Positions 46,081-58,869 of a stretch of 64,000 bases of DNA are shown here, one piece after another (position 1 is the stretch's first letter; each line of letters opens with the position of its first letter). Made by a program: the position numbers and the translations under genes. Under the pieces are notes generated by a model. The model worked only from the letters and a program-made list of their open reading frames with translations, was not told where the DNA came from and ran no database searches. Origin of the DNA: Elusimicrobiota bacterium (GTDB lineage Bacteria; Elusimicrobiota; Elusimicrobia; UBA1565); NCBI GenBank assembly GCA_043827405.1, contig JBDRPD010000039.1, forward strand, positions 103,830 to 167,829. The letters are read 5' to 3'.

Positions 46081-46133
46081 ATTGTTCCAATGCAAACAAT
46101 TGATTAGACATGCAAGGGTGCGGCGGGTACACT
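46081..46133 (+). promoter_or_regulatory. Promoter of 2-oxoacid dehydrogenase operon with upstream dyad
   Basis: TAGACA-N17-TACACT (46105-46133) preceded by ATTGTT-N8-AACAAT. Confidence 0.5.
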
Positions 46134-46145
46134 GATAGGGTACCT

Positions 46146-47273
46146 ATGCCTATAGAAACTGTCGCGCAGACGAAAACCGAGCGCATCAAGATCCTGGATG
46201 TCGATGGCCGCGTCGACCGGACGCTATCGGCCGGTATGGACGCCAAGATGATGCGGACGATCTATGAGAAGATGGTCCAGCTGCGCGTATTCGATGAGCG
46301 CGCCTTCAAGCTGCAGCGGCAGGGCCGGTTGGGGACCTATCCGCAAATCCTCGGGCAGGAGGCTACCCAGATCGTCCCCGCGCTGTGTTTGCGGGACAAG
46401 GATTGGCTGGTTCCGACCTATCGCGGGCATGGCGCCTACTTCGCGCGAGGCGTAAGGCTGATGGAGAGCCTGCTGTACTGGGGCGGTGACCACCGTTTCG
46501 GACGTTCCATGGCCGGGACCTGCAACTTCGATTTCGCGGTGCCGGTGGGCTCGCATATGACGCAGGCCGCCGGTCTCGCCTGGGCGCAGCAGCTGAGAAA
46601 ATCCGGCGACGTGGTCCTGTGCTATTCGGGCGACGGCGGGTCCTCGAAGGGGGATTTCCATGAGGCCCTGACTTTTGCCGGAGTGCGGAAGCTGCCGCTG
46701 GTCGTGCTTATTGAAAATAATCAGTATGCGATATCCACCCCGCGTGCCGCCCAGTGCGGAGCGCCGACCTTGGCGCAGAAGGCCCACGGCTACGGCATTC
46801 ACGGCGTGCAGGCGGACGGCAATGATCCCTTGGCCGTCTACCGGACCGTCAACGAGGCCGTTGCGCGCGGCCGTCAGGGCGGCGGGGCGAGCGTCGTCGA
46901 ATGCGTCACCTATCGCATGGGCCACCATACGACGGCCGATGACGCCAACCGCTATCGCAGTAAAGAAGAGACGGAGAGTTGGCGGAAAAAAGACCCTATC
47001 GAACGTCTGCGCAAGTACCTCGGGGCGGAGGGCCTCCTGACGCCGGCGGACGACGAGAGGATTAGCCGAGAGGCGGAGCTTATGGTGCAGGCCGAGGTTA
47101 AGGCCTACGAGGAATTCGGGCCGCCCAATCCGCTCGACATGTTCGCGCACAATTACGCGCAGGCGCCGTGGCATCTGATCGAACAGCGGACGGAGCTGGA
47201 GAACCTTCTCGAGGATAAACGCTACCGCAACGAGATCGAGGAACTGCCGGCCGCCGAAGGCCGGTTTCCGTAA
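46146..47273 (+). CDS. pdhA: Pyruvate/branched-chain 2-oxoacid dehydrogenase E1 alpha
   Basis: LQRQGR, GQEA, TPP motif GDG...NNQYAIS, YRMGHHTTADD. Substrate specificity not resolvable. Confidence 0.9.
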   Translation: MPIETVAQTKTERIKILDVDGRVDRTLSAGMDAKMMRTIYEKMVQLRVFDERAFKLQRQGRLGTYPQILGQEATQIVPALCLRDKDWLVPTYRGHGAYFARGVRLMESLLYWGGDHRFGRSMAGTCNFDFAVPVGSHMTQAAGLAWAQQLRKSGDVVLCYSGDGGSSKGDFHEALTFAGVRKLPLVVLIENNQYAISTPRAAQCGAPTLAQKAHGYGIHGVQADGNDPLAVYRTVNEAVARGRQGGGASVVECVTYRMGHHTTADDANRYRSKEETESWRKKDPIERLRKYLGAEGLLTPADDERISREAELMVQAEVKAYEEFGPPNPLDMFAHNYAQAPWHLIEQRTELENLLEDKRYRNEIEELPAAEGRFP

Positions 47274-47284
47274 GCGGGGGGACT

Positions 47285-48283
47285 ATGGCCCAGATGAATT
47301 TACTGCAGGGAATCAACGCCGGTCTCCGACTGGCGATGGAAGACGATGACAGGGTCGTGGTCTTCGGCGAGGACGTGGGCAAAAACGGCGGCGTGTTTCG
47401 CGTGACCGACGGCTTGCAGCAAACCTTCGGTGCGGAGCGTGTCGTCGACACTCCTTTGGCCGAGCTGGGGATCGTCGGAGCCGCGGTCGGTCTGGCCGCG
47501 GCCGGCTACCGGCCGGTATGCGAGATTCAGTTCAGCGGTTTTCTGCCGTCGGTGATGGATCAGGTGATGTGCCACCTCGGCCGGATGCGCAACCGGACCC
47601 AGGGGCGGACCACGCTGCCGCTGGTGATCCGGGCGCCTATGGGCGGTCTGATTCACGCGCCGGAGCACCACTCCGAGAGCCTGGAAGCCCATTTTACCCA
47701 TACGCCCGGCATCAAGGTCGTGATGCCGTCGACTCCCGAAGACGCGAAGGGCCTGATGCTGGCCGCGATCAGGGATCCCGATCCCGTCATCTATTTTGAG
47801 CCGAAGCGCCTTTATCGATCCGCTCTGGGCGAGGTCCCGGCTGGGCGTCGAGAGACGCCGATCGGCAAAGCGCGCATCGCGCGCGAAGGCGGCGATATTA
47901 CGCTTATCACCTGGGGCGCCATGGTGCATACCTGCATGAAGGCCGCCATTGAGTTGGGCCAAGGCGGCATTTCCGCCGAAGTGCTGGATCTGCGCACTCT
48001 CACGCCCCTCGATCTGGACGCGGTCCTGGCCTCGGTGAGAAAGACCGGGCATGCCCTTATCGCCCACGAAGCGCCCAATACCGGCTCCTGGGCGGCGGAG
48101 ATCAGTTCGCTTATCCATGAGCGGGCTTTCCGCGACCTGAAGGCGCCGGTAAGCCGGATCGGTTCCTGGGACATCCGCCAGCCGCTGTTCCGGCTGGAGA
48201 AGCACTATATCCCCGACGTGCACCGGATCGCGAAAGGGGCGCGGCGAACGATCGGCGCCCTGCGCTCTGGCGCCAGCGTATGA
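47285..48283 (+). CDS. pdhB: Pyruvate/branched-chain 2-oxoacid dehydrogenase E1 beta
   Basis: GEDVGKNGGVFRVT, DTPLAE, EIQF, EHHSES, DLRTLTPLD. Confidence 0.9.
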   Translation: MAQMNLLQGINAGLRLAMEDDDRVVVFGEDVGKNGGVFRVTDGLQQTFGAERVVDTPLAELGIVGAAVGLAAAGYRPVCEIQFSGFLPSVMDQVMCHLGRMRNRTQGRTTLPLVIRAPMGGLIHAPEHHSESLEAHFTHTPGIKVVMPSTPEDAKGLMLAAIRDPDPVIYFEPKRLYRSALGEVPAGRRETPIGKARIAREGGDITLITWGAMVHTCMKAAIELGQGGISAEVLDLRTLTPLDLDAVLASVRKTGHALIAHEAPNTGSWAAEISSLIHERAFRDLKAPVSRIGSWDIRQPLFRLEKHYIPDVHRIAKGARRTIGALRSGASV

Positions 48284-48326
48284 TAGTTGATATGCTCACC
48301 CGGCAGCCGGCAAGCAAGGAGCGTCT

Positions 48327-48566
48327 ATGGTATTTGAATTCAAGCTGCCCGATCTGGGCGAGGGTCTCATCGAGGCGGAGGTCGTCAAATGGCTGGTGAA
48401 GGAGGGCGACCCGGTGCAGGAGGATCAAAACCTGGCCGAGATCCTGACCGACAAGGCCATGATCGAGCTGCCGTCTCCGAAGGCGGGCAAGATCGTCAAG
48501 CTGCATGCGCCGGAGGGGGCGAAAGTCAAAGTGGGCGAGATCCTTTTGGCGATCGAGGAGAGCTGA
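48327..48566 (+). CDS. Stand-alone lipoyl domain
   Basis: FKLPDLGEGL, TDKA lipoyl-lysine motif, AAGGAG RBS, TGA directly after the domain. Confidence 0.88.
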   Translation: MVFEFKLPDLGEGLIEAEVVKWLVKEGDPVQEDQNLAEILTDKAMIELPSPKAGKIVKLHAPEGAKVKVGEILLAIEES

Positions 48567-49258
48567 ACCTCGAGGAGCGAGTCCCCTACCGCCTGATCCG
48601 GCGCCGCACGGGCGAGAAGATGGTCGAGTCGATGCGCAGGATTCCGCATGTAAGCCATTGCGAGGAAGCCGACGTTACGGAGCTTGCCGCGCTGCGCGAA
48701 GAGCTTAAGCCCGCGGCCGAGAAGCGCGGCCGCAAGCTGACCTTTCTGCCCTTCATCGCCAAGGCGCTGGTCACGGCGCTCAAAGAGTTCCCGTCTTTAA
48801 ACGCGGTCCTCGACGAAGAGAAGCAGGAAATCGTCCTGAAAAAATACTACAACCTCGGCGTCGCCGTGGCGGCGGAGCAGGGGCTTATCGTCCCCGTGGT
48901 CAAAAACGCGGAGCGCAAGGACCTCTGGGAGCTGGGCGGTGAGATCGCCGAGCTGGCCGGCCAGGTACGGGCCAATCGCATCAAGCTTCAAGATATCCAG
49001 GGCGGGACGTTTACCATCACCAATATCGGCCCCATCGGCGGGCTCTATGCCACGCCGATCATTCTGCATCCCCAAACCGGCATCCTCGCGCTGATGAAGA
49101 TGCGCGAGGAGCCCAAGGTCCGCGGCGGCGAGATCGTCATCCGCAAAGTGATGAACCTGGTGCTGTCATTCGACCACCGCGTCCTTGACGGCGCCGAGGC
49201 GGCGCGCTTTATGGCGCGCCTCGTCGACCTCATCGAAGCTCCCCGTCAGTTGCTATAA
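48563..49258 (+). CDS. E2 acyltransferase catalytic domain only (start uncertain: CTG 48563 or ATG 48620)
   Basis: KLTFLPF, GTFTITNIG, catalytic DHRVLDG. In the -1 frame relative to the lipoyl ORF. Confidence 0.8.
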   Translation: MNLEERVPYRLIRRRTGEKMVESMRRIPHVSHCEEADVTELAALREELKPAAEKRGRKLTFLPFIAKALVTALKEFPSLNAVLDEEKQEIVLKKYYNLGVAVAAEQGLIVPVVKNAERKDLWELGGEIAELAGQVRANRIKLQDIQGGTFTITNIGPIGGLYATPIILHPQTGILALMKMREEPKVRGGEIVIRKVMNLVLSFDHRVLDGAEAARFMARLVDLIEAPRQLL

Positions 49259-50272: not shown

Positions 50273-51181
50273 ATGAGGCTGCATTCGGTCGTGCTCGGTT
50301 TGGCGCTCCTGCTGGGCGCGGCGCCGGGCGAAGCCCTGGTCAAGATCAAGCTGGCGCCGGCGTCGCTGTCTTCGGTGCAGGGGATCGGACAGCTGGGCGT
50401 CTTGCCGGGCGCCGGCGGCTCGATCCTGTCGGCGCCGCTGCTGCGGCAGAACCTCAAGTTCGATTCGTTTTTGCCGAACGTCCTGCCGCAGGTCAAGGCC
50501 CCGGGAATCTCGGCGCCGGTCAAGACGCAGCGGACGGCCAAAGAAGCGCTTACCGTCCTTAGCGCCAAGGATTCCAAGCGTACCGAGAGCGCCAAATTCT
50601 CGGCCGTCTTTGACGGCGTCGCGCCGCCGGTCAAGCTGGCCATCGTCGGCCCGCCGGGATCGGGGAAATCCACCCAGGCGAAGCTGCTGGCCAAGGACCT
50701 GGGCGTCGTGCATATCTCCGCCGGACAGCTGCTGCGCGAGCATGCGCGGAACCATCCCGCGGTGGCGCAGCGCATGAACGCGGGAAAACTTGTGGATACC
50801 GATTTGGTCATGGGCGTCGTCCGTGAACGGCTGTCGCGGCCCGACGTCCAGCGCCGCGGCTTCATCCTCGACGGATTTCCGCGGCGCCTGGTGGAAGAGG
50901 AGGCGCTGACGGAGATGCTGGGCCGGGAGGGCGCGATCGACGCCATGATCCGCCTGGACGTGCCGGAAGCCGAGCTCCTGCGCCGCATCCAGGCGCGGGG
51001 CCGCGCCGACGACAGCGCAGAGGTCTTTCGCGAACGGATGAAGGTCTACCACGAGCAGACCGAGCCCGCGATCGAGAAGCTCGGCCGCAGCGCGTCCGTC
51101 ATCAGGCCGCGCGACGCCGCGGGCAAGGTGGAAGCGATCTACCGCGATATTCTGTCCGCGGTGCGCGGCCTCTTTAACTGA
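50273..51181 (+). CDS. Adenylate kinase domain (short LID) fused to signal peptide and leader
   Basis: P-loop GPPGSGKST, HISAGQLLR, GKLV, FILDGFPR, RGRADD after a roughly 118-aa N-terminal extension. Confidence 0.88.
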   Translation: MRLHSVVLGLALLLGAAPGEALVKIKLAPASLSSVQGIGQLGVLPGAGGSILSAPLLRQNLKFDSFLPNVLPQVKAPGISAPVKTQRTAKEALTVLSAKDSKRTESAKFSAVFDGVAPPVKLAIVGPPGSGKSTQAKLLAKDLGVVHISAGQLLREHARNHPAVAQRMNAGKLVDTDLVMGVVRERLSRPDVQRRGFILDGFPRRLVEEEALTEMLGREGAIDAMIRLDVPEAELLRRIQARGRADDSAEVFRERMKVYHEQTEPAIEKLGRSASVIRPRDAAGKVEAIYRDILSAVRGLFN

Positions 51182-52156
51182 TCAGCGGATCCGGATCTTC
51201 AGGACCGCCTCGGTCCACTCGCCCGGCTTGGCCTTTTTCTTCTTGACCGAGATGTCGCGGGTGAGGATGCCGGGATCGTCGACGCCGGCGAAGGGCGCGT
51301 CCTCGCTGAAGCTCTTCATGGCGTCTTTGAGATCCACCGACGGATGGCGGGAGGCGATGGCCCGCACGAGCTCGACGCCCTGGGGTCCGCCGACCTCGAA
51401 CTCGAAGCCGGCGTCGCGGTCCGGTATGGTGTAGGTGACTCCTTTCTTGACCCAGTTGCTCGGCGAGTAGTTGTTGGGAAAGATGATGGTGGCCGAGCCG
51501 CTGGTTCCGACGTCGATTAAAGTCAGGTAGCAGTCCTGGTCGGCGCTGACGTGGAACTGCATGCTCTCGCCGATCTTGTACTCGTTCTTCGCGCTCCACA
51601 GCATGAGCCGGATGAGGCCTCCTTGCCCTTCGGCCTCCGCCTTCATTCCAACGGCCTTCTCATGCAGCGCCTTGAGATCGTCCTGGGTTTTGATCGCGGC
51701 GGACGCCACGCCCTTGATCTCTCCGGTCTCGGTGTCGATGAGGGAAACCTGCCAGGAGATTTCATCATCCCGCACGACGTATTTGCCGACGAACAGCACG
51801 TCCATGCCGACGAGCTTTCCCGCCTGGGCGGCGGTCTCCTCATCGACGAGCCCCTGCATGCCGAGCTTCCATTCGTCGACCAGGGTCTGGGTATTGCTGC
51901 GGTCGAGCAGCTGAAACTTGTACGCCTTGGCCTGCCCCGCCAGCGACGATTCGAGCTCCTGCGCCAGCAGCGTGGAGAGCGCGGTCAGCCGGCCTTGCGG
52001 GTCCTTGAGGCTGCCGACAGCGACTTTCTGCTCCTTGAGCAGGCCCTGGTCCAGGATGTTCTTGACGATCTGCGCCGCGGCGCGCTCCACCGTTTTCGCT
52101 TGGACGGGCAGCGCGACGGCGGTGAGCAGGGCGCCGGCTAGAATATTCTTGAGCAT
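51182..52156 (-). CDS. Exported FlgO/CsgG-like plus DUF4384-like domain protein
   Basis: Signal peptide, LLDRS...AGKLVGMDVLFVG, YKIGE...DCYLTLIDV...IIFPN...GVELVRAIAS. Confidence 0.75.
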   Translation of the reverse strand: MLKNILAGALLTAVALPVQAKTVERAAAQIVKNILDQGLLKEQKVAVGSLKDPQGRLTALSTLLAQELESSLAGQAKAYKFQLLDRSNTQTLVDEWKLGMQGLVDEETAAQAGKLVGMDVLFVGKYVVRDDEISWQVSLIDTETGEIKGVASAAIKTQDDLKALHEKAVGMKAEAEGQGGLIRLMLWSAKNEYKIGESMQFHVSADQDCYLTLIDVGTSGSATIIFPNNYSPSNWVKKGVTYTIPDRDAGFEFEVGGPQGVELVRAIASRHPSVDLKDAMKSFSEDAPFAGVDDPGILTRDISVKKKKAKPGEWTEAVLKIRIR

Positions 52157-52177
52157 ATTTGTGTCCCCCACGAAATA

Positions 52178-54228: not shown

Positions 54229-56142
54229 ATGGATTTGGAGTCCTTCTACACGCTCGATATCACCGAGGTATGCGGCTATCGCTGCGTCTTCTGCATCACC
54301 CGGACCAAGACGCCCAAAGCGGGCGGACGGATGACGCCGCTGTCGGCGGTCAAGGCACAGCTGCCGCATATCCGGAAAATGGGGCATAAGACGGTCTGCT
54401 TTACGGGGGGGGAACCCACGCTGCATCCCGACTTGCCCGCAATGGTGCGCGCGGCGCGCCGCGCCGGCCTCGAGGCCGTCATCAATACTCATGGCATGCG
54501 TTTCGCGGACAAACGCTATCTAGCCAGGTATGCGGGATTGGATTTTTCCTGCGTGCTGTCCATGCACTCGCATAAAGAGACTGTCTACAATAAAATAACC
54601 GGGACCAAGGGCTTTCGCCGCACCATCCAGGGCATTCGCAATCTGCTTAATGCGGATATCCCGATTGTCTTCTCGCATGTCCTGAGCGCGCAGAACTACG
54701 CGGATTTTCCCGGCTGGGTCGCCTATGTGCGCCGGAGCTTTCGGGGGCGCGTCTCCGCTTCGATTTTCTTCAATCAGGAAAATGACGCCGGCGGTTCCAT
54801 GGTCCGCTTCAGCCGGGTGCGTCCGCACCTGCATAAGGGGCTGCGCGGCGCCGGCTTTCCTATCACCTATTTAACCGGCTGCACCGCCAGCCACTGCCTG
54901 ATCGAGCCGAACTTCTTCGGCCGGCGGGGGAGCTTTTCGGCGGCCAACCGGCGGCGGAACCTGGCGCGGCTGCGGGCGCTGCCGCTGATCCATCAGAAGC
55001 AGCTGCTGAACTACTTCGTAGCGGAGAAGTGCTACCGCTGCGTCCGCTTCATGAAGCCCGCCTGCAAGGGCATCCGCAAAAAGTACCTGCTGCGTTTCGG
55101 CGGCGGCGAGTTCGGCTCACTGCTTAACGCCGAGGAGCGGTCCTATATCGATGCGCTGCGGCGCCGCATGCGGTCCGGCGAGCTCTCGCCGCCGATGCGC
55201 AGCAGCTCCCATATCCTGCTGGGTGCGACCGGCGCCGATTCCGCCGGCGTCGTTCCCGCGCTATGCCGCGTTCTGCTGGGCGATGCGGACCATCATGTCC
55301 GCCGCGAGGCCGCCTTGGCGCTGGGCGGCCTGGGCAGCGCCGCGCGCGGGGCCGTGCCGGCGCTGCGGCGGGCGCTGCGCGACACCGACGCGCTGATTCG
55401 GCAGAGCGCGGTGCATGCGCTGTCGCGGCTGGAGCCGCCGCCGCGGGAAGCGATCGGCGCGCTGCTGCGCGCGCTGCGTGACGCGGATACGGAGGTCCGC
55501 CGCTACGGCGCCTTGGCATTGGCGAAGTATGAGCGGCTGCCGCGCAAGGCGGTGCGTCCGTTGACGGCGCTGCTCCGGTCCGCCGACGCGCAGACCCGGA
55601 GATACGGCGTCCTGGCGCTGACGCGAACGCCCTCCGGCGGCGGTCCGGCGCTGCTGCGGGTCTTGCGCGATCCCGATGCGCAAACCCGGGAGCATGCCGC
55701 CGTGGCATTGGCGCGCGCCCCGCGAGCGGAAAGCGCCGCGGCTTTGCTCCGCGCGTTAAGCGACGGCGAAGAAAGGGTGGGCGTCGAGGCGGCTTATGCT
55801 TTGTCGCGGCTGCCCCGGCTGCCTGTTAAGGCCGCGGCCCCGCTGATTCGAGCGCTCAGCGCGCGGTCCCCGCGCCTGCGGGCGAACGCGGCGCTGGCGC
55901 TGGCCAAGGTGCGGCCCCTGCCGCGCCGGGCGGCGGCGGCGCTGACGCAGGCGCTGGCCGACAGCGAGGCCGAGGTCCGCCGCGAGGCGGTCTCGGCTTT
56001 GGTCGCGCTCAAGCCTGTTCCCCGGGCGTCTGTTTCGGCCTTGGCCCGGGCGCTGGATGATCCGGATGCGCATGTCCGGCGGGAAGCGGCCCGGGCGCTG
56101 GAAAAAAAGCCGCGCGGCCCCGGCCCCGGCTTGTCAGCATGA
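54229..56142 (+). CDS. Radical SAM enzyme fused to HEAT (PBS-lyase-like) repeats
   Basis: CGYRCVFC, TGGEPTL, extra Cys cluster CYRC-x7-CKG, about 9 repeats of L.D.D..VR..A..AL. Confidence 0.85.
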   Translation: MDLESFYTLDITEVCGYRCVFCITRTKTPKAGGRMTPLSAVKAQLPHIRKMGHKTVCFTGGEPTLHPDLPAMVRAARRAGLEAVINTHGMRFADKRYLARYAGLDFSCVLSMHSHKETVYNKITGTKGFRRTIQGIRNLLNADIPIVFSHVLSAQNYADFPGWVAYVRRSFRGRVSASIFFNQENDAGGSMVRFSRVRPHLHKGLRGAGFPITYLTGCTASHCLIEPNFFGRRGSFSAANRRRNLARLRALPLIHQKQLLNYFVAEKCYRCVRFMKPACKGIRKKYLLRFGGGEFGSLLNAEERSYIDALRRRMRSGELSPPMRSSSHILLGATGADSAGVVPALCRVLLGDADHHVRREAALALGGLGSAARGAVPALRRALRDTDALIRQSAVHALSRLEPPPREAIGALLRALRDADTEVRRYGALALAKYERLPRKAVRPLTALLRSADAQTRRYGVLALTRTPSGGGPALLRVLRDPDAQTREHAAVALARAPRAESAAALLRALSDGEERVGVEAAYALSRLPRLPVKAAAPLIRALSARSPRLRANAALALAKVRPLPRRAAAALTQALADSEAEVRREAVSALVALKPVPRASVSALARALDDPDAHVRREAARALEKKPRGPGPGLSA

Positions 56143-57336: not shown

Positions 57337-57483
57337 TCGCGGAATTATGGCATGAAAATATGAAAAATGCCAGGGGGACCCAAGAACCTATATGACAGTA
57401 GGTCCAAAATCCGCCGCCTAGCTGCCCTTTTGCTCCATACGGCTGATGCCGCCTCGTTATATCATGGAGGCCGAGGTATAACC

Positions 57484-58869
57484 ATGATGCGCAAACATAC
57501 CGCGTTATTGCGAGCAGCACTATCTTTATCTCTCTCCGTATTGCCGGCCGCTCAGGCGTCGGCGCGGGTCATCTCAGCTCCGGTCGCCGCTTCCGGCGCG
57601 GCCTCCGCTGTCGGGGCGGCCGGCGCGGCGCTACAGGCTGTGCGCACATCTCAGGCCGGCATGCCGCTATTTACGCCCGTGCTGCCCTCCAACCTCACGC
57701 TCATGCCGTCCTTTCGGATTGATTCGGCGCCCTCAGTGACGGTGGACCACTCGCTTAAGGTGATGCCGATGGTCGCCGCGCCGAATCTTTCCGCAGTCAT
57801 TAACAAGCAGGCCGAAGCAAAGGGCGTTCAGGGGACCATAAATACTTTGCGCGAGACCGTCGCCGTGAAATCGCCGGGAATGAAGTCCGGCGGCAAAGTC
57901 GGACTGCGGCTCAACAGGCTCTTCGACGGCTTGGGCCAGCGCCGCCAGGGGCAGGACGGAGCCGTGCCTGCCGTGACGGGCCGCTACCTCAGGCATGCGT
58001 CCGGGCTCAGCAAGGCGGCAGCGAAAGCGACTCAGCAGGTCGAGGTCGCGGTGCCCGCCGCGGTCAAGCCGGCTTCTTCTCACGGCTTGAAGATCGCCGC
58101 CGCGGTTCTCGCCGCGGCGCTGCTCTTCGCGGCCCCCACGATCGCTTTGGCGGCCGGCGCGCCGACTGCGGTCGCCGCTTCGCTTGCCTACCTGACTGCG
58201 TATCAGCCGGTAATCACCGCGGCCGCCGCGGCCGCGGGCGTCGTTTACGGGCTGATCGCCTCACGCGGCAAGGACGGCGAGGCAATGAGTGGAGCCCAGG
58301 TTCTGGGCCAGGTTTTGCGCTTCGGCCTGCTGGCCGGCGCCGGGGCGTACGTCCTCATGGATGTCACGCAGGTCCTCTTCCTCGGCCTTAAGACCGTCGG
58401 GATCACCGCTCTTCCTGCCGCTTTGGCTACCGCGGCTCTTGGCCAGGGCGCATTCCAGGGCAAGTTCCAGGACCCGAAGACCTCGTCGGCGGACCGGATC
58501 ATGGCGGTATTCCCGGCCGTGGCCGCGGCGCTGGGACTCAGCATCGGGGTGCAGATAGCGGCCGTGCCGCAGCTGCTGGCGCTGGCGGTCGACGCCATGG
58601 CCGTTACCGGCGTCGCCTCGGCGCTCTTCGCCGCGCTGTATCAGCCGGTCAAGTCGCCGGAAAAAGGCCCGGCGAAGATGGCTCGGGGCTACGTGCTGCA
58701 GGCCCTCATGAGCGGCCTCGCTCTCGCGGTGACGAACCCGTACTACATGTACACGTTCGCGGCCCTGGCGGCCTGGGGATTTTACGACGTGATCTCCAGC
58801 GTGGCGCTCGAAGTTGAAGCGCACCTGCCGGAGTCGCTGCGGCGGCTGTGGCGCGGCAAGAAAAGCTGA
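57484..58869 (+). CDS. Multi-TM membrane protein with signal peptide and long leader
   Basis: Signal peptide, VGAAGA...LFDG leader, about 8 hydrophobic segments. GAGGT RBS before MMRKH. Confidence 0.8.
   Translation: MMRKHTALLRAALSLSLSVLPAAQASARVISAPVAASGAASAVGAAGAALQAVRTSQAGMPLFTPVLPSNLTLMPSFRIDSAPSVTVDHSLKVMPMVAAPNLSAVINKQAEAKGVQGTINTLRETVAVKSPGMKSGGKVGLRLNRLFDGLGQRRQGQDGAVPAVTGRYLRHASGLSKAAAKATQQVEVAVPAAVKPASSHGLKIAAAVLAAALLFAAPTIALAAGAPTAVAASLAYLTAYQPVITAAAAAAGVVYGLIASRGKDGEAMSGAQVLGQVLRFGLLAGAGAYVLMDVTQVLFLGLKTVGITALPAALATAALGQGAFQGKFQDPKTSSADRIMAVFPAVAAALGLSIGVQIAAVPQLLALAVDAMAVTGVASALFAALYQPVKSPEKGPAKMARGYVLQALMSGLALAVTNPYYMYTFAALAAWGFYDVISSVALEVEAHLPESLRRLWRGKKS

What the first reader, a model, noticed from the sequence alone, without database searches (positions are those of the whole stretch)
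50273..51181. Adenylate kinase with a signal peptide
Seen: an intact short-LID adenylate kinase domain (GPPGSGKST, DGFPR, RGRADD) starts right after VFDG, behind a clear signal peptide (MRLHSVVLGLALLLGAAPGEA). It is not in the secY/ribosomal protein context typical of housekeeping adk. Inference: an exported nucleotide-interconverting enzyme acting on external, host or prey adenylate pools.
Basis: partly seen in the sequence, partly recalled or inferred. Interest (0 to 1): 0.7.

Follow-up and report, generated by a model that had tools for sequence, protein, structure and literature searches.

The report
Export-tagged nucleotide kinase in Elusimicrobia
This uncultured bacterium carries a third, cysteine-free copy of an adenylate-kinase-type enzyme with an export-type leader and an altered substrate pocket, and it likely works outside the cell's own cytoplasm, probably in a prey or host cell, as one step of a predicted nucleotide-activating chain whose other enzymes carry the same leader.

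Summary
ORF 50273-51181 (302 aa) is a signal peptide, a ~95-aa disordered linker ending in FDG, then an intact short-LID adenylate-kinase domain. Two leaderless long-LID ADKs exist elsewhere in the genome, one beside secY.

The protein belongs to a monophyletic clade, found in 39 of 101 genomes of one Elusimicrobiota order and in none of 341 other genomes sampled from the phylum. Catalytic residues are invariant, but the AMP-base site is remodelled (Thr31 to Val/Ala, Thr89 to Arg, Gln92 to Glu), so 'adenylate' is doubtful.

The leader is shared by 58 or more nearly cysteine-free proteins in this genome. These include class III-like PPK2, a PQ-loop/uridine kinase/cytidine deaminase fusion, endonuclease I, RNase II, ClpB, Lon and transporters. 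The kinase co-occurs with the uridine kinase module (32 of 39 genomes; OR 31, against 3-4 for control cargoes). In relatives it is fused to that module, to endonuclease I or to an NTT-like carrier.

Best reading: an exported NMP-to-NDP salvage step in an ATP-containing compartment, probably prey or host cytoplasm. Location and specificity are untested. The scan noted the leader before on other DNA; look-ups returned no note on this nucleotide module.

The parts
50273..51181 (+). Whole gene, 302 aa, no cysteine: signal peptide + linker + FDG + ADK-family kinase
50273..50335 (+). Sec/SPase I-like signal peptide, residues 1-21 (n-region with R and H, 12-residue hydrophobic core, Pro and G-E-A; cleavage site judged by eye)
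50336..50626 (+). Low-complexity, mostly disordered linker (residues 22-118) with a predicted helix at 89-112
50465..50482 (+). [STG]xLPx[LVFI] leader motif (SFLPNV, residues 65-70), found in 26 of 58 leader proteins against 12 of 765 other signal-peptide-like proteins
50609..50617 (+). FDG leader motif (residues 113-115), found in 20 of 58 leader proteins against 22 of 765 other signal-peptide-like proteins
50627..51178 (+). Short-LID adenylate-kinase-family domain (residues 119-302)
50648..50671 (+). P-loop GPPGSGKS (K132 invariant)
50720..50722 (+). A150, at the position of adenine-binding Thr31 of E. coli ADK
50870..50896 (+). DGFPRRxxE: Mg-binding Asp and Arg88 equivalents kept; R205 and E208 replace Thr89 and Gln92 (clade signature)
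50996..51013 (+). Short LID RGRADD with invariant R242, R244, D246, D247

Best explanation
It is an intact adenylate-kinase-family enzyme behind a conserved signal-peptide-plus-linker leader, which likely exports it to an ATP-containing space beyond the cell's own cytoplasm (most probably a prey or host cytoplasm), where it is predicted to phosphorylate salvaged NMPs, not only AMP, to NDPs. Shown: the gene, the leader, the intact catalytic site, the remodelled base pocket, the leader-tagged partner enzymes, the fusions and the co-occurrence. Inferred chain: (1) Sec export and SPase I cleavage, with the protein kept cysteine-free for transit. (2) Delivery onward by an unidentified route; type IV pilus- and Tad-like secretin loci are present, while T3SS and T6SS markers were not found. 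(3) Leader-tagged nucleases supply nucleotides (RNase II releases NMPs; endonuclease I cuts DNA), and the leader-tagged cytidine deaminase/uridine kinase on a PQ-loop transporter makes UMP or CMP from nucleosides. (4) This enzyme makes NDPs using ATP. (5) Leader-tagged class III-like PPK2 makes NTPs from polyphosphate and regenerates ATP, which would also feed the tagged ClpB, Lon, MoxR and ABC exporter. An NTT-like carrier, fused to this kinase in three relatives, would move nucleotides across that compartment's membrane.
For: Third, leader-bearing paralogue beside two housekeeping ADKs. Monophyletic clade, SH-aLRT 100, 71 of 114 rows, in 39 of 101 genomes of the order and 0 of 341 other phylum genomes sampled. 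P-loop Lys, five Arg and the Asp residues are invariant in 50 of 50 aligned sequences. Base pocket: Arg at 89 and Glu/Asp at 92 in 103 of 103 scored clade proteins, Thr31 kept in 1; 0 of 334 non-clade ADK domains show that Arg plus Glu/Asp pair, and 291 keep Gln. Thr31 and Gln92 bind the AMP adenine (PMC3369945 passages). The N-terminal hydrophobic stretch is signal-like, not anchor-like: 0 of 57 clade and 0 of 58 leader proteins reach a TM-like 19-mer. Cysteine: 14 in 53,435 residues of leader proteins against 0.65% in other signal-peptide-like proteins; ADK 0 against 6 and 6 in its paralogues, PPK2 0 against 3, GlgA 1 against 10; 99 of 106 clade proteins have none after residue 30. The short LID avoids the Zn-cysteine lid of both paralogues. 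Tagged partners in this genome: PPK2 closest to class III 5LC9, PQ-loop/Udk/Cdd, EndoI, RNB, ClpB, Lon, MoxR, ABC, MFS. Co-occurrence over 101 genomes with the PQ-loop/Udk module: 32 both, 7 kinase only, 8 module only, 54 neither (OR 31; OR 34 among Lon-positive genomes with the fusions removed), against OR 4.3 for PPK2, 3.8 for Lon and 3.0 for GlgA. Fusions: PQ-Udk-ADK, PQ-ADK, EndoI-ADK, ADK-NTT-like. An EndoI-kinase fusion is hard to place beside the producer's own chromosome (inference). In transporter fusions the linker and kinase lie on the normally cytoplasmic, Lys/Arg-rich face (family topology recalled), which fits insertion into another cell's membrane from inside.
Against: No localisation, cleavage, activity or expression data; the one RNA run laid gave no cover of this gene. 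No delivery machine was identified: no FHIPEP or VipB match, and a single SecA. Transmembrane segments of 13 tagged membrane proteins are no less hydrophobic than those of 203 others (p 0.19-0.52 for the three hydrophobicity measures), so ordinary Sec stop-transfer in the producer's own membrane is expected and would oppose whole-protein export. The kinase also fuses to unrelated or unknown domains (P0123/124, P0127, P0128/130, P0062), so tagged genes fuse promiscuously. Thr31 to Ala alone is common outside the clade (56 of 241), and the fold and HMM scores stay closer to ADK than to UMP/CMP kinase. Genomes are related, so the p-values overstate. 7 kinase-positive genomes lack the Udk module and 9 lack the PPK2 hit. 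The NTT assignment is weak (TLC E 2e-6 for P0129; far below the TIGR00769 cut-off). A predatory or symbiotic lifestyle is not shown for this order in anything read here.
Confidence: 0.45

Rival explanations
1. It is exported only as far as the producer's own periplasm or an internal membrane-bounded lumen. That space is energised by tagged PPK2 and an NTT-like carrier, and the tagged transporters sit inverted in the inner membrane.
For: This needs only SecA and SPase I, both present. Tagged transporters have normal TM hydrophobicity. Cysteine loss fits a periplasmic residence. Tagged ClpB, Lon, MscS and glycogen synthase look like housekeeping for a second compartment.
Against: It would put the Lys/Arg-rich loops and N-termini of MFS, ABC and PQ-loop proteins on the outer face, against the positive-inside rule (rule recalled). 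Periplasmic nucleotide levels are low (PMC12691689 section 8).
Confidence: 0.2
2. One reading: an AMP-specific ecto-adenylate kinase that balances or modulates external, host or prey ATP/ADP/AMP pools, for example with PPK2 as an ATP-regenerating pair.
For: ADK fold and best HMM scores. A Glu at position 92 could still accept the adenine N6 hydrogen bond (inference). A tagged PPK2 hit is present in 30 of 39 kinase-positive genomes. Three relatives are fused to an NTT-like carrier. Non-classically secreted ADK of Pseudomonas is a recalled precedent; the paper was not held.
Against: The base pocket is changed clade-wide. All NCBIfam adk cut-offs listed are missed. The link to PPK2 is no stronger than to unrelated cargo (OR 4.3 against 3.8 and 3.0), while the link to the uridine kinase module is OR 31. 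Class III PPK2 handles both NMP and NDP itself (PMC13397275 passages).
Confidence: 0.17
3. The leader is a membrane tether or intracellular sorting tag. The enzyme stays in the producer's cytoplasm and traps imported nucleosides and nucleotides by phosphorylation at the inner face of its transporters.
For: This solves ATP supply and transporter orientation at once. Transporter-kinase trapping is a known logic (PnuC/NadR, recalled). An earlier scan note (e1-7074053) read leaders in this genome as tethers.
Against: The hydrophobic stretch is too short and weak for an anchor in 57 of 57 clade proteins, with a positive n-region and a Pro after the core in 86%; an AxA-like site follows in 53 of 56. 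Cysteine purging would be unexplained. EndoI with its His-Asn motifs intact is tagged and fused to this kinase. Leaderless cytoplasmic paralogues of ADK, PPK2, Udk, GlgA, RNB, MoxR and ClpB already exist.
Confidence: 0.15
4. Artefact: the N-terminal extension is not translated, or the kinase is a decaying duplicate.
For: No clear Shine-Dalgarno at normal spacing and no promoter match. 3 of 71 clade entries are called without an extension and 12 without a signal peptide.
Against: No internal start codon near the domain, coding-like GC3, purifying selection on the signal peptide, and invariant catalytic residues. At least one signal-less entry (P0030) is a mis-called start.
Confidence: 0.03

Closest known systems
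Short-LID bacterial adenylate kinases (M. tuberculosis Adk, PDB 1P4S/2CDN)
   Same: Fold (Z 25.4, rmsd 2.2 A, 38-39% identity), P-loop, catalytic arginines, short RGRxDD lid.
   Different: Signal peptide and linker; paralogue outside the secY operon; Thr31 to Ala/Val, position 89 to Arg, Gln92 to Glu; cysteine-free; frequent fusions.
Eukaryote-type UMP/CMP kinases (1UKE, 1UKY; TIGR01359)
   Same: Same fold (Z 23.5-23.8). Ala at the Thr31 position and pyrimidine or broad NMP use (recalled; the ScURA6 abstract listing says AMP, CMP and UMP).
   Different: Score 101 against cut-off 207.6. These enzymes have Asn at the Gln92 position (recalled), not Glu with a neighbouring Arg. Any pyrimidine use here would be convergent.
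Exported alarmone synthetases (EAS/RelV; PMC12691689)
   Same: Sec signal peptide on a nucleotide-dependent enzyme; the same open question of where it finds substrate, with entry into neighbouring cells raised by the authors.
   Different: Single toxic enzymes. Here a non-toxic metabolic enzyme sits within a set of 58 or more tagged proteins that includes an ATP-regenerating enzyme and transporters.
Chlamydial metabolic effectors (T3SS-secreted glycogen enzymes; PMC4829429 abstract, PMC3722199 listing)
   Same: Normally cytoplasmic metabolic enzymes, glycogen synthase among them, sent into a compartment outside the bacterium to redirect host resources.
   Different: Uses type III secretion; no FHIPEP match here. 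The tag here is Sec-like and also heads membrane transporters and AAA+ machines.
Engineered nucleoside kinase / NMP kinase / PPK2 cascades (PMC13397275)
   Same: Same enzyme logic of nucleoside to NMP to NDP to NTP, with polyphosphate.
   Different: In vitro biotechnology; here a natural, tagged set whose coupling is inferred.
NTT-domain fusions (NTT-HEAT, NTT-HEAT-cNBD; PMC5381601)
   Same: An NTT-like carrier joined to a soluble domain.
   Different: The passages read give no adenylate kinase fusion (0 occurrences of the term) and report no NTT in Elusimicrobia. The NTT identity here is distant.

Membership tests
Adenylate kinase family (fold) | CORE/NMP-bind/LID P-loop kinase fold and Pfam ADK over cut-off | tested here: met
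   PF00406 121 bits against 26.8; Z 25.4 to 2cdn
Adenylate kinase family (fold) | Catalytic Lys13, Arg36, Asp84, Arg88, Arg119/123/156/167, Asp158/159 equivalents | tested here: met
   K132, R155, D200, R204, R238, R242, R244, D246, D247, R255 invariant in 50 of 50; mapping to E. coli numbers partly recalled
Adenylate kinase proper (EC 2.7.4.3) | Thr31 and Gln92 reading the AMP adenine | tested here: not met
   A150 and E208; clade Thr 1 of 103, Gln 0 of 103
Adenylate kinase proper (EC 2.7.4.3) | Score over an NCBIfam adk cut-off | tested here: not met
   Best 150.9 against 187; TIGR01351 138 against 168. The two paralogues pass.
Adenylate kinase proper (EC 2.7.4.3) | ATP + AMP = 2 ADP activity | not testable with these tools
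   Needs an assay
UMP/CMP kinase (TIGR01359) | Score over the family cut-off | tested here: not met
   101.5 against 207.6
UMP/CMP kinase (TIGR01359) | Pyrimidine NMP acceptor activity | not testable with these tools
   Inferred only, from fusion and co-occurrence with uridine kinase
Sec/SPase I signal peptide | Positive n-region, 7-15 residue h-region, small-residue -3/-1 site | tested here: met
   By simple rules, not SignalP: 56 of 71 signal-like, 53 AxA-like; core median 8, n-charge +2
Sec/SPase I signal peptide | Actual translocation and cleavage | not testable with these tools
   SecA and three SPase I genes are present
Tat or lipoprotein signal | RRxFL motif or lipobox Cys | tested here: not met
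   1 and 1 among the 56 signal-like clade proteins; P0001 has neither
N-terminal transmembrane anchor | 19-residue segment with favourable insertion energy | tested here: not met
   0 of 57 clade proteins; P0001 +4.2 on a simple summed Hessa scale, values recalled
Elusimicrobiota tripartite leader (scan notes only; no curated family) | Signal peptide, Ala/Pro linker with xLPx motif, helix-FDG, cysteine-free cargo | tested here: met
   All four in P0001; no usable Atlas hit for residues 1-118
T3SS/T6SS metabolic effector | Cognate T3SS or T6SS in the genome | tested here: not met
   No PF00771 or PF05943 match in a 98% complete genome

The most novel reading that the evidence does not exclude
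One order of Elusimicrobiota delivers a whole 'second cytoplasm' kit into prey or host cells: nucleases, proteases, AAA+ machines, transporters and its own polyphosphate-driven energy and nucleotide-activation chain. This kinase is the NMP-to-NDP step that turns the victim's nucleic acids and nucleosides into activated nucleotides for export through an NTT-like carrier, a mode of metabolic takeover by a secretion route not yet described.
Probability: 0.3. Interest if true: 0.92.

Novelty: new variant of a known kind. Interest (0 to 1): 0.72.

Why it matters
The puzzle of this lineage's export-tagged ATP-dependent enzymes is where they would get ATP and nucleotides. This gene, with the tagged PPK2, the uridine kinase module and the NTT-like fusions, suggests the tagged set brings its own energy and nucleotide supply, which means it runs in a closed, energised compartment. 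The kinase is small, soluble and easy to express, so it is the cheapest handle for testing both the leader (reporter fusions) and the chemistry (NMP panel). The Arg/Glu base pocket is also an untested natural specificity variant of a textbook enzyme, of possible use in NTP-synthesis cascades.

Tried and rejected
Conserved operon context: none seen; neighbours differed in the part of the 17-locus listing that was shown (output cut in the middle).

The search for related loci in genome contigs returned only 12 ordinary ADKs of other phyla.

Reduced TM hydrophobicity of tagged membrane proteins, as expected if they pass Sec whole: not found (13 against 203 proteins).

PPK2 as the specific partner: co-occurrence no better than controls. 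The GlgA control needed a bit-score cut (428 or more) chosen by eye to separate tagged from housekeeping copies.

An accessory SecA2: not found. T3SS and T6SS markers: not found.

Expression: one RNA run with a 0.07 word share gave no cover of the gene; no habitat or expression claim is made.

The Atlas search of the leader gave no usable hit. The promoter/terminator scan was empty.

The careful tree did not finish, so the quick tree was used. Tandem ADKs with more than 260 residues after the first P-loop, P0062, and rows without a P-loop match were left out. The outgroup cannot name a donor.

The leader census rests on my own gene calls and signal rules, so it misses members (for example window 57367-58869) and may include a few false ones.

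Literature searches listed no paper on a signal-peptide-bearing ADK or on this leader; the library lacks most subscription papers. Meheust 2020, Ball 2013 and Markaryan 2001 were not held. A structural source for UMP/CMP kinase pocket residues was not found. No supplements were read.

Full report
Observation. Window 50273-51181 (+) is one 302-aa ORF. Residues 1-21 look like a Sec signal peptide. Residues 22-118 are a low-complexity linker, modelled as disordered except for a helix at 89-112 that ends at FDG (113-115). Residues 119-302 are a confident ADK fold, closest to short-LID M. tuberculosis ADK by sequence and structure. There is no start codon after codon 67 before the P-loop, and GC3 in the linker equals that of the kinase. 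The gene lies between an alpha/beta hydrolase and a convergent CsgG/DUF4384 gene. The genome (4.33 Mb, 98% complete) has three ADK-family genes. The other two are leaderless, long-LID and over NCBIfam cut-offs: one between secY and map, one beside an aldehyde dehydrogenase. P0001 misses every adk cut-off listed.

The clade. Of the best 120 of 919 homologues listed, 71 rows fall on one side of a branch with SH-aLRT 100 in a quick tree of 114 rows. 56 of the 71 have a signal-like N-terminus, 53 of those with an AxA-like site. 12 entries have an extension without a signal, at least one of them a mis-called start, and 3 have no extension. Leader length runs from 27 to 205 residues, and 33 have an F[DE][GN] motif. 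In four related fusion genes the signal peptide is under purifying selection, and the linker evolves faster but with dN below dS. The clade occurs in 39 of 101 genomes of the order and was not found in 341 other genomes sampled from the phylum. No shared neighbourhood was seen in the loci displayed.

Active site. All catalytic positions are invariant in the 50-row alignment. The base pocket is not. In E. coli ADK, Thr31 and Gln92 bind the AMP adenine (PMC3369945, passages). Over 106 clade proteins from three searches (some near-duplicates; 3 unscored), the Thr31 position is Val 65, Ala 29, Ser 6 and Thr 1; position 89 is Arg in 103 of 103; and position 92 is Glu 98, Asp 5. Among 334 other ADK-family domains retrieved, 291 keep Gln and none has the Arg plus Glu/Asp pair; Ala at 31 is common there (56 of 241), so it is not diagnostic alone. 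The enzyme is therefore very likely active, and its acceptor is open.

The leader is a genome-wide tag. With my own gene calls, 58 proteins have a signal-like start plus an Ala/Pro/Ser/Gly-rich linker. FDG occurs in 20 of 58 against 22 of 765 other signal-like proteins (shuffles: mean 0.8, max 5), and [STG]xLPx[LVFI] in 26 of 58 against 12 of 765 (shuffles: mean 2.3); P0001 has both. These proteins have 14 cysteines in 53,435 residues, against 0.65% and 1.19% in other signal-like and signal-less proteins, and far fewer than their leaderless paralogues. None has an anchor-strength N-terminal helix. Pfam scans of the other 57, plus three further candidates, left about half without a family. The rest include PPK2, a PQ-loop-type membrane domain joined to uridine kinase and cytidine deaminase, endonuclease I, RNase II, ClpB, Lon, MoxR, an ABC exporter, an ATP-grasp/MFS fusion, five further MFS proteins, MscS, glycogen synthase, amylase, an HD domain, PLD and S8/S41/M28/M48/M50 peptidases. 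The PPK2 is closest to class III 5LC9 and passes TIGR03709, and most of the top 30 order-wide homologues inspected also carry a leader. Earlier scan notes described this leader on other cargo; look-ups for this kinase, PPK2 or the uridine kinase module returned nothing.

Partners. In relatives the kinase is fused behind PQ-loop + uridine kinase (L037-L040, P0133-P0137), behind PQ-loop alone (P0132, P0186), behind endonuclease I (L036, P0125, P0126), in front of an NTT-like MFS carrier (P0129, P0131, P0222), and behind unrelated or unknown domains (L041/P0127, P0123/124, P0128/130), always after the same kind of leader where the N-terminus is complete. The carrier is 32% identical over 375 aa to a leaderless NTT-like gene of this genome, itself only a distant TLC match. 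Over the 101 genomes, the kinase and the PQ-loop/Udk module agree in 86: 32 both, 54 neither, 7 and 8 single (three of the 8 match only the membrane half). The odds ratio is 31 overall, 45 within Lon-positive genomes, 34 with the seven fusion genomes removed, and 69 within genus g12, where 7 of the 8 shared cases are fusions. PPK2, Lon and GlgA give 4.3, 3.8 and 3.0. The genomes are related and incomplete, so this is a ranking and not a test. Still, a 100% complete genome (G314) lacks both while keeping tagged PPK2, Lon and GlgA, and the two g15 genomes lack the Udk module while the one read in full has the endonuclease fusion.

Mechanism. The simplest chain is nucleoside or nucleic acid to NMP (tagged Cdd/Udk, RNase II, with EndoI upstream), to NDP (this enzyme), to NTP (tagged PPK2 from polyphosphate), the same logic as engineered cascades (PMC13397275, passages). 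Every link is inferred. The compartment is constrained from two sides. Signal anatomy, cysteine loss and the nuclease fusion argue against the producer's cytoplasm. In every tagged transporter read, the linker and kinase lie on the face that is normally cytoplasmic (family topologies recalled), which argues against simple insertion in the producer's inner membrane with the leader outside. A prey or host cytoplasm satisfies both, and I rank it first (0.45), ahead of an energised periplasm or lumen (0.2), an AMP-specific ecto-kinase (0.17) and a cytoplasmic tether (0.15). Against it: tagged TM segments are normally hydrophobic; no T3SS, T6SS or second SecA was found; the three secretin loci (type IV pilus-, T2SS/T4P- and Tad-like, read by eye) are not linked to the leader; and there are no expression data.

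Literature seen. PMC12691689 (passages and section 8) gives a precedent for Sec-exported nucleotide-dependent enzymes. PMC4829429 (abstract) and PMC3722199 (listing) describe chlamydial metabolic effectors. PMC5381601 (passages) reports no NTT in Elusimicrobia. PMC9476967 (whole text) describes an aerobic, diderm Elusimicrobiota genome of order UBA1565 from an amoeba culture and does not mention such a leader; whether that is this order was not established. PMC11495043 and bioRxiv 2023.11.21.568195 (passages) do not describe it either. Searches listed no description of this kinase or leader.

Verdict. Real, conserved and apparently undescribed: a new variant of the ADK family (it works like ADK; membership of AMP-specific ADK is not met) and the likely nucleotide-activation step of a lineage-wide export-tagged enzyme set. 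Interest 0.72.

Noticed in passing
G000:C39:40024-41286 (L071): Leader-tagged, cysteine-free class III-like PPK2; the family hit occurs in 57 of 101 genomes of the order. A leaderless two-domain PPK2 is on C87.
   Followed up: yes
G000:C53:148155-151421 (L086): Leader + PQ-loop/SWEET-like membrane domain + uridine kinase + cytidine deaminase in one 1,088-aa protein; its 3 cysteines after residue 30 include the two of the deaminase PCxxC zinc motif.
   Followed up: partly
P0129, P0131, P0222: Leader-ADK-NTT-like carrier fusions, an architecture not among the NTT fusions named in the passages read of PMC5381601.
   Followed up: partly
G000:C39:18535-19803 and C50:212088-213089: Two leaderless NTT/TLC-like carriers, although NTTs were reported absent from Elusimicrobia in 2017.
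   Followed up: partly
window 57367-58869 (+): Another signal + Ala-rich linker + LFDG protein with a hydrophobic C-terminal half and no Pfam match; missed by my census.
   Followed up: partly
window 46110-49258 (+): 2-oxoacid dehydrogenase E1 alpha/E1 beta/E2 cluster; the E2 ORF 48389-49258 holds only the catalytic domain, so the lipoyl domain is separate or frameshifted.
   Followed up: no
window 54229-56142 (+): Radical SAM domain fused to HEAT repeats.
   Followed up: no
window 51182-52171 (-): Signal-peptide protein with CsgG-like and DUF4384 domains, convergent and abutting the kinase gene.
   Followed up: no
L001 (G000:C54:51746-52408): Second leaderless long-LID adenylate kinase between an aldehyde dehydrogenase and a carbonic-anhydrase-like gene.
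   Followed up: partly
L051:6300-11677 (G076): A short-leader member of the kinase clade converges on a 1,573-aa leader-tagged ClpB-like protein.
   Followed up: no
G000:C34:32747-37741, C66:113949-123252, C83:127448-135895: Three secretin loci that read as type IVa pilus, T4P/T2SS-like and Tad-like systems; candidates for the delivery route, unlinked so far.
   Followed up: partly
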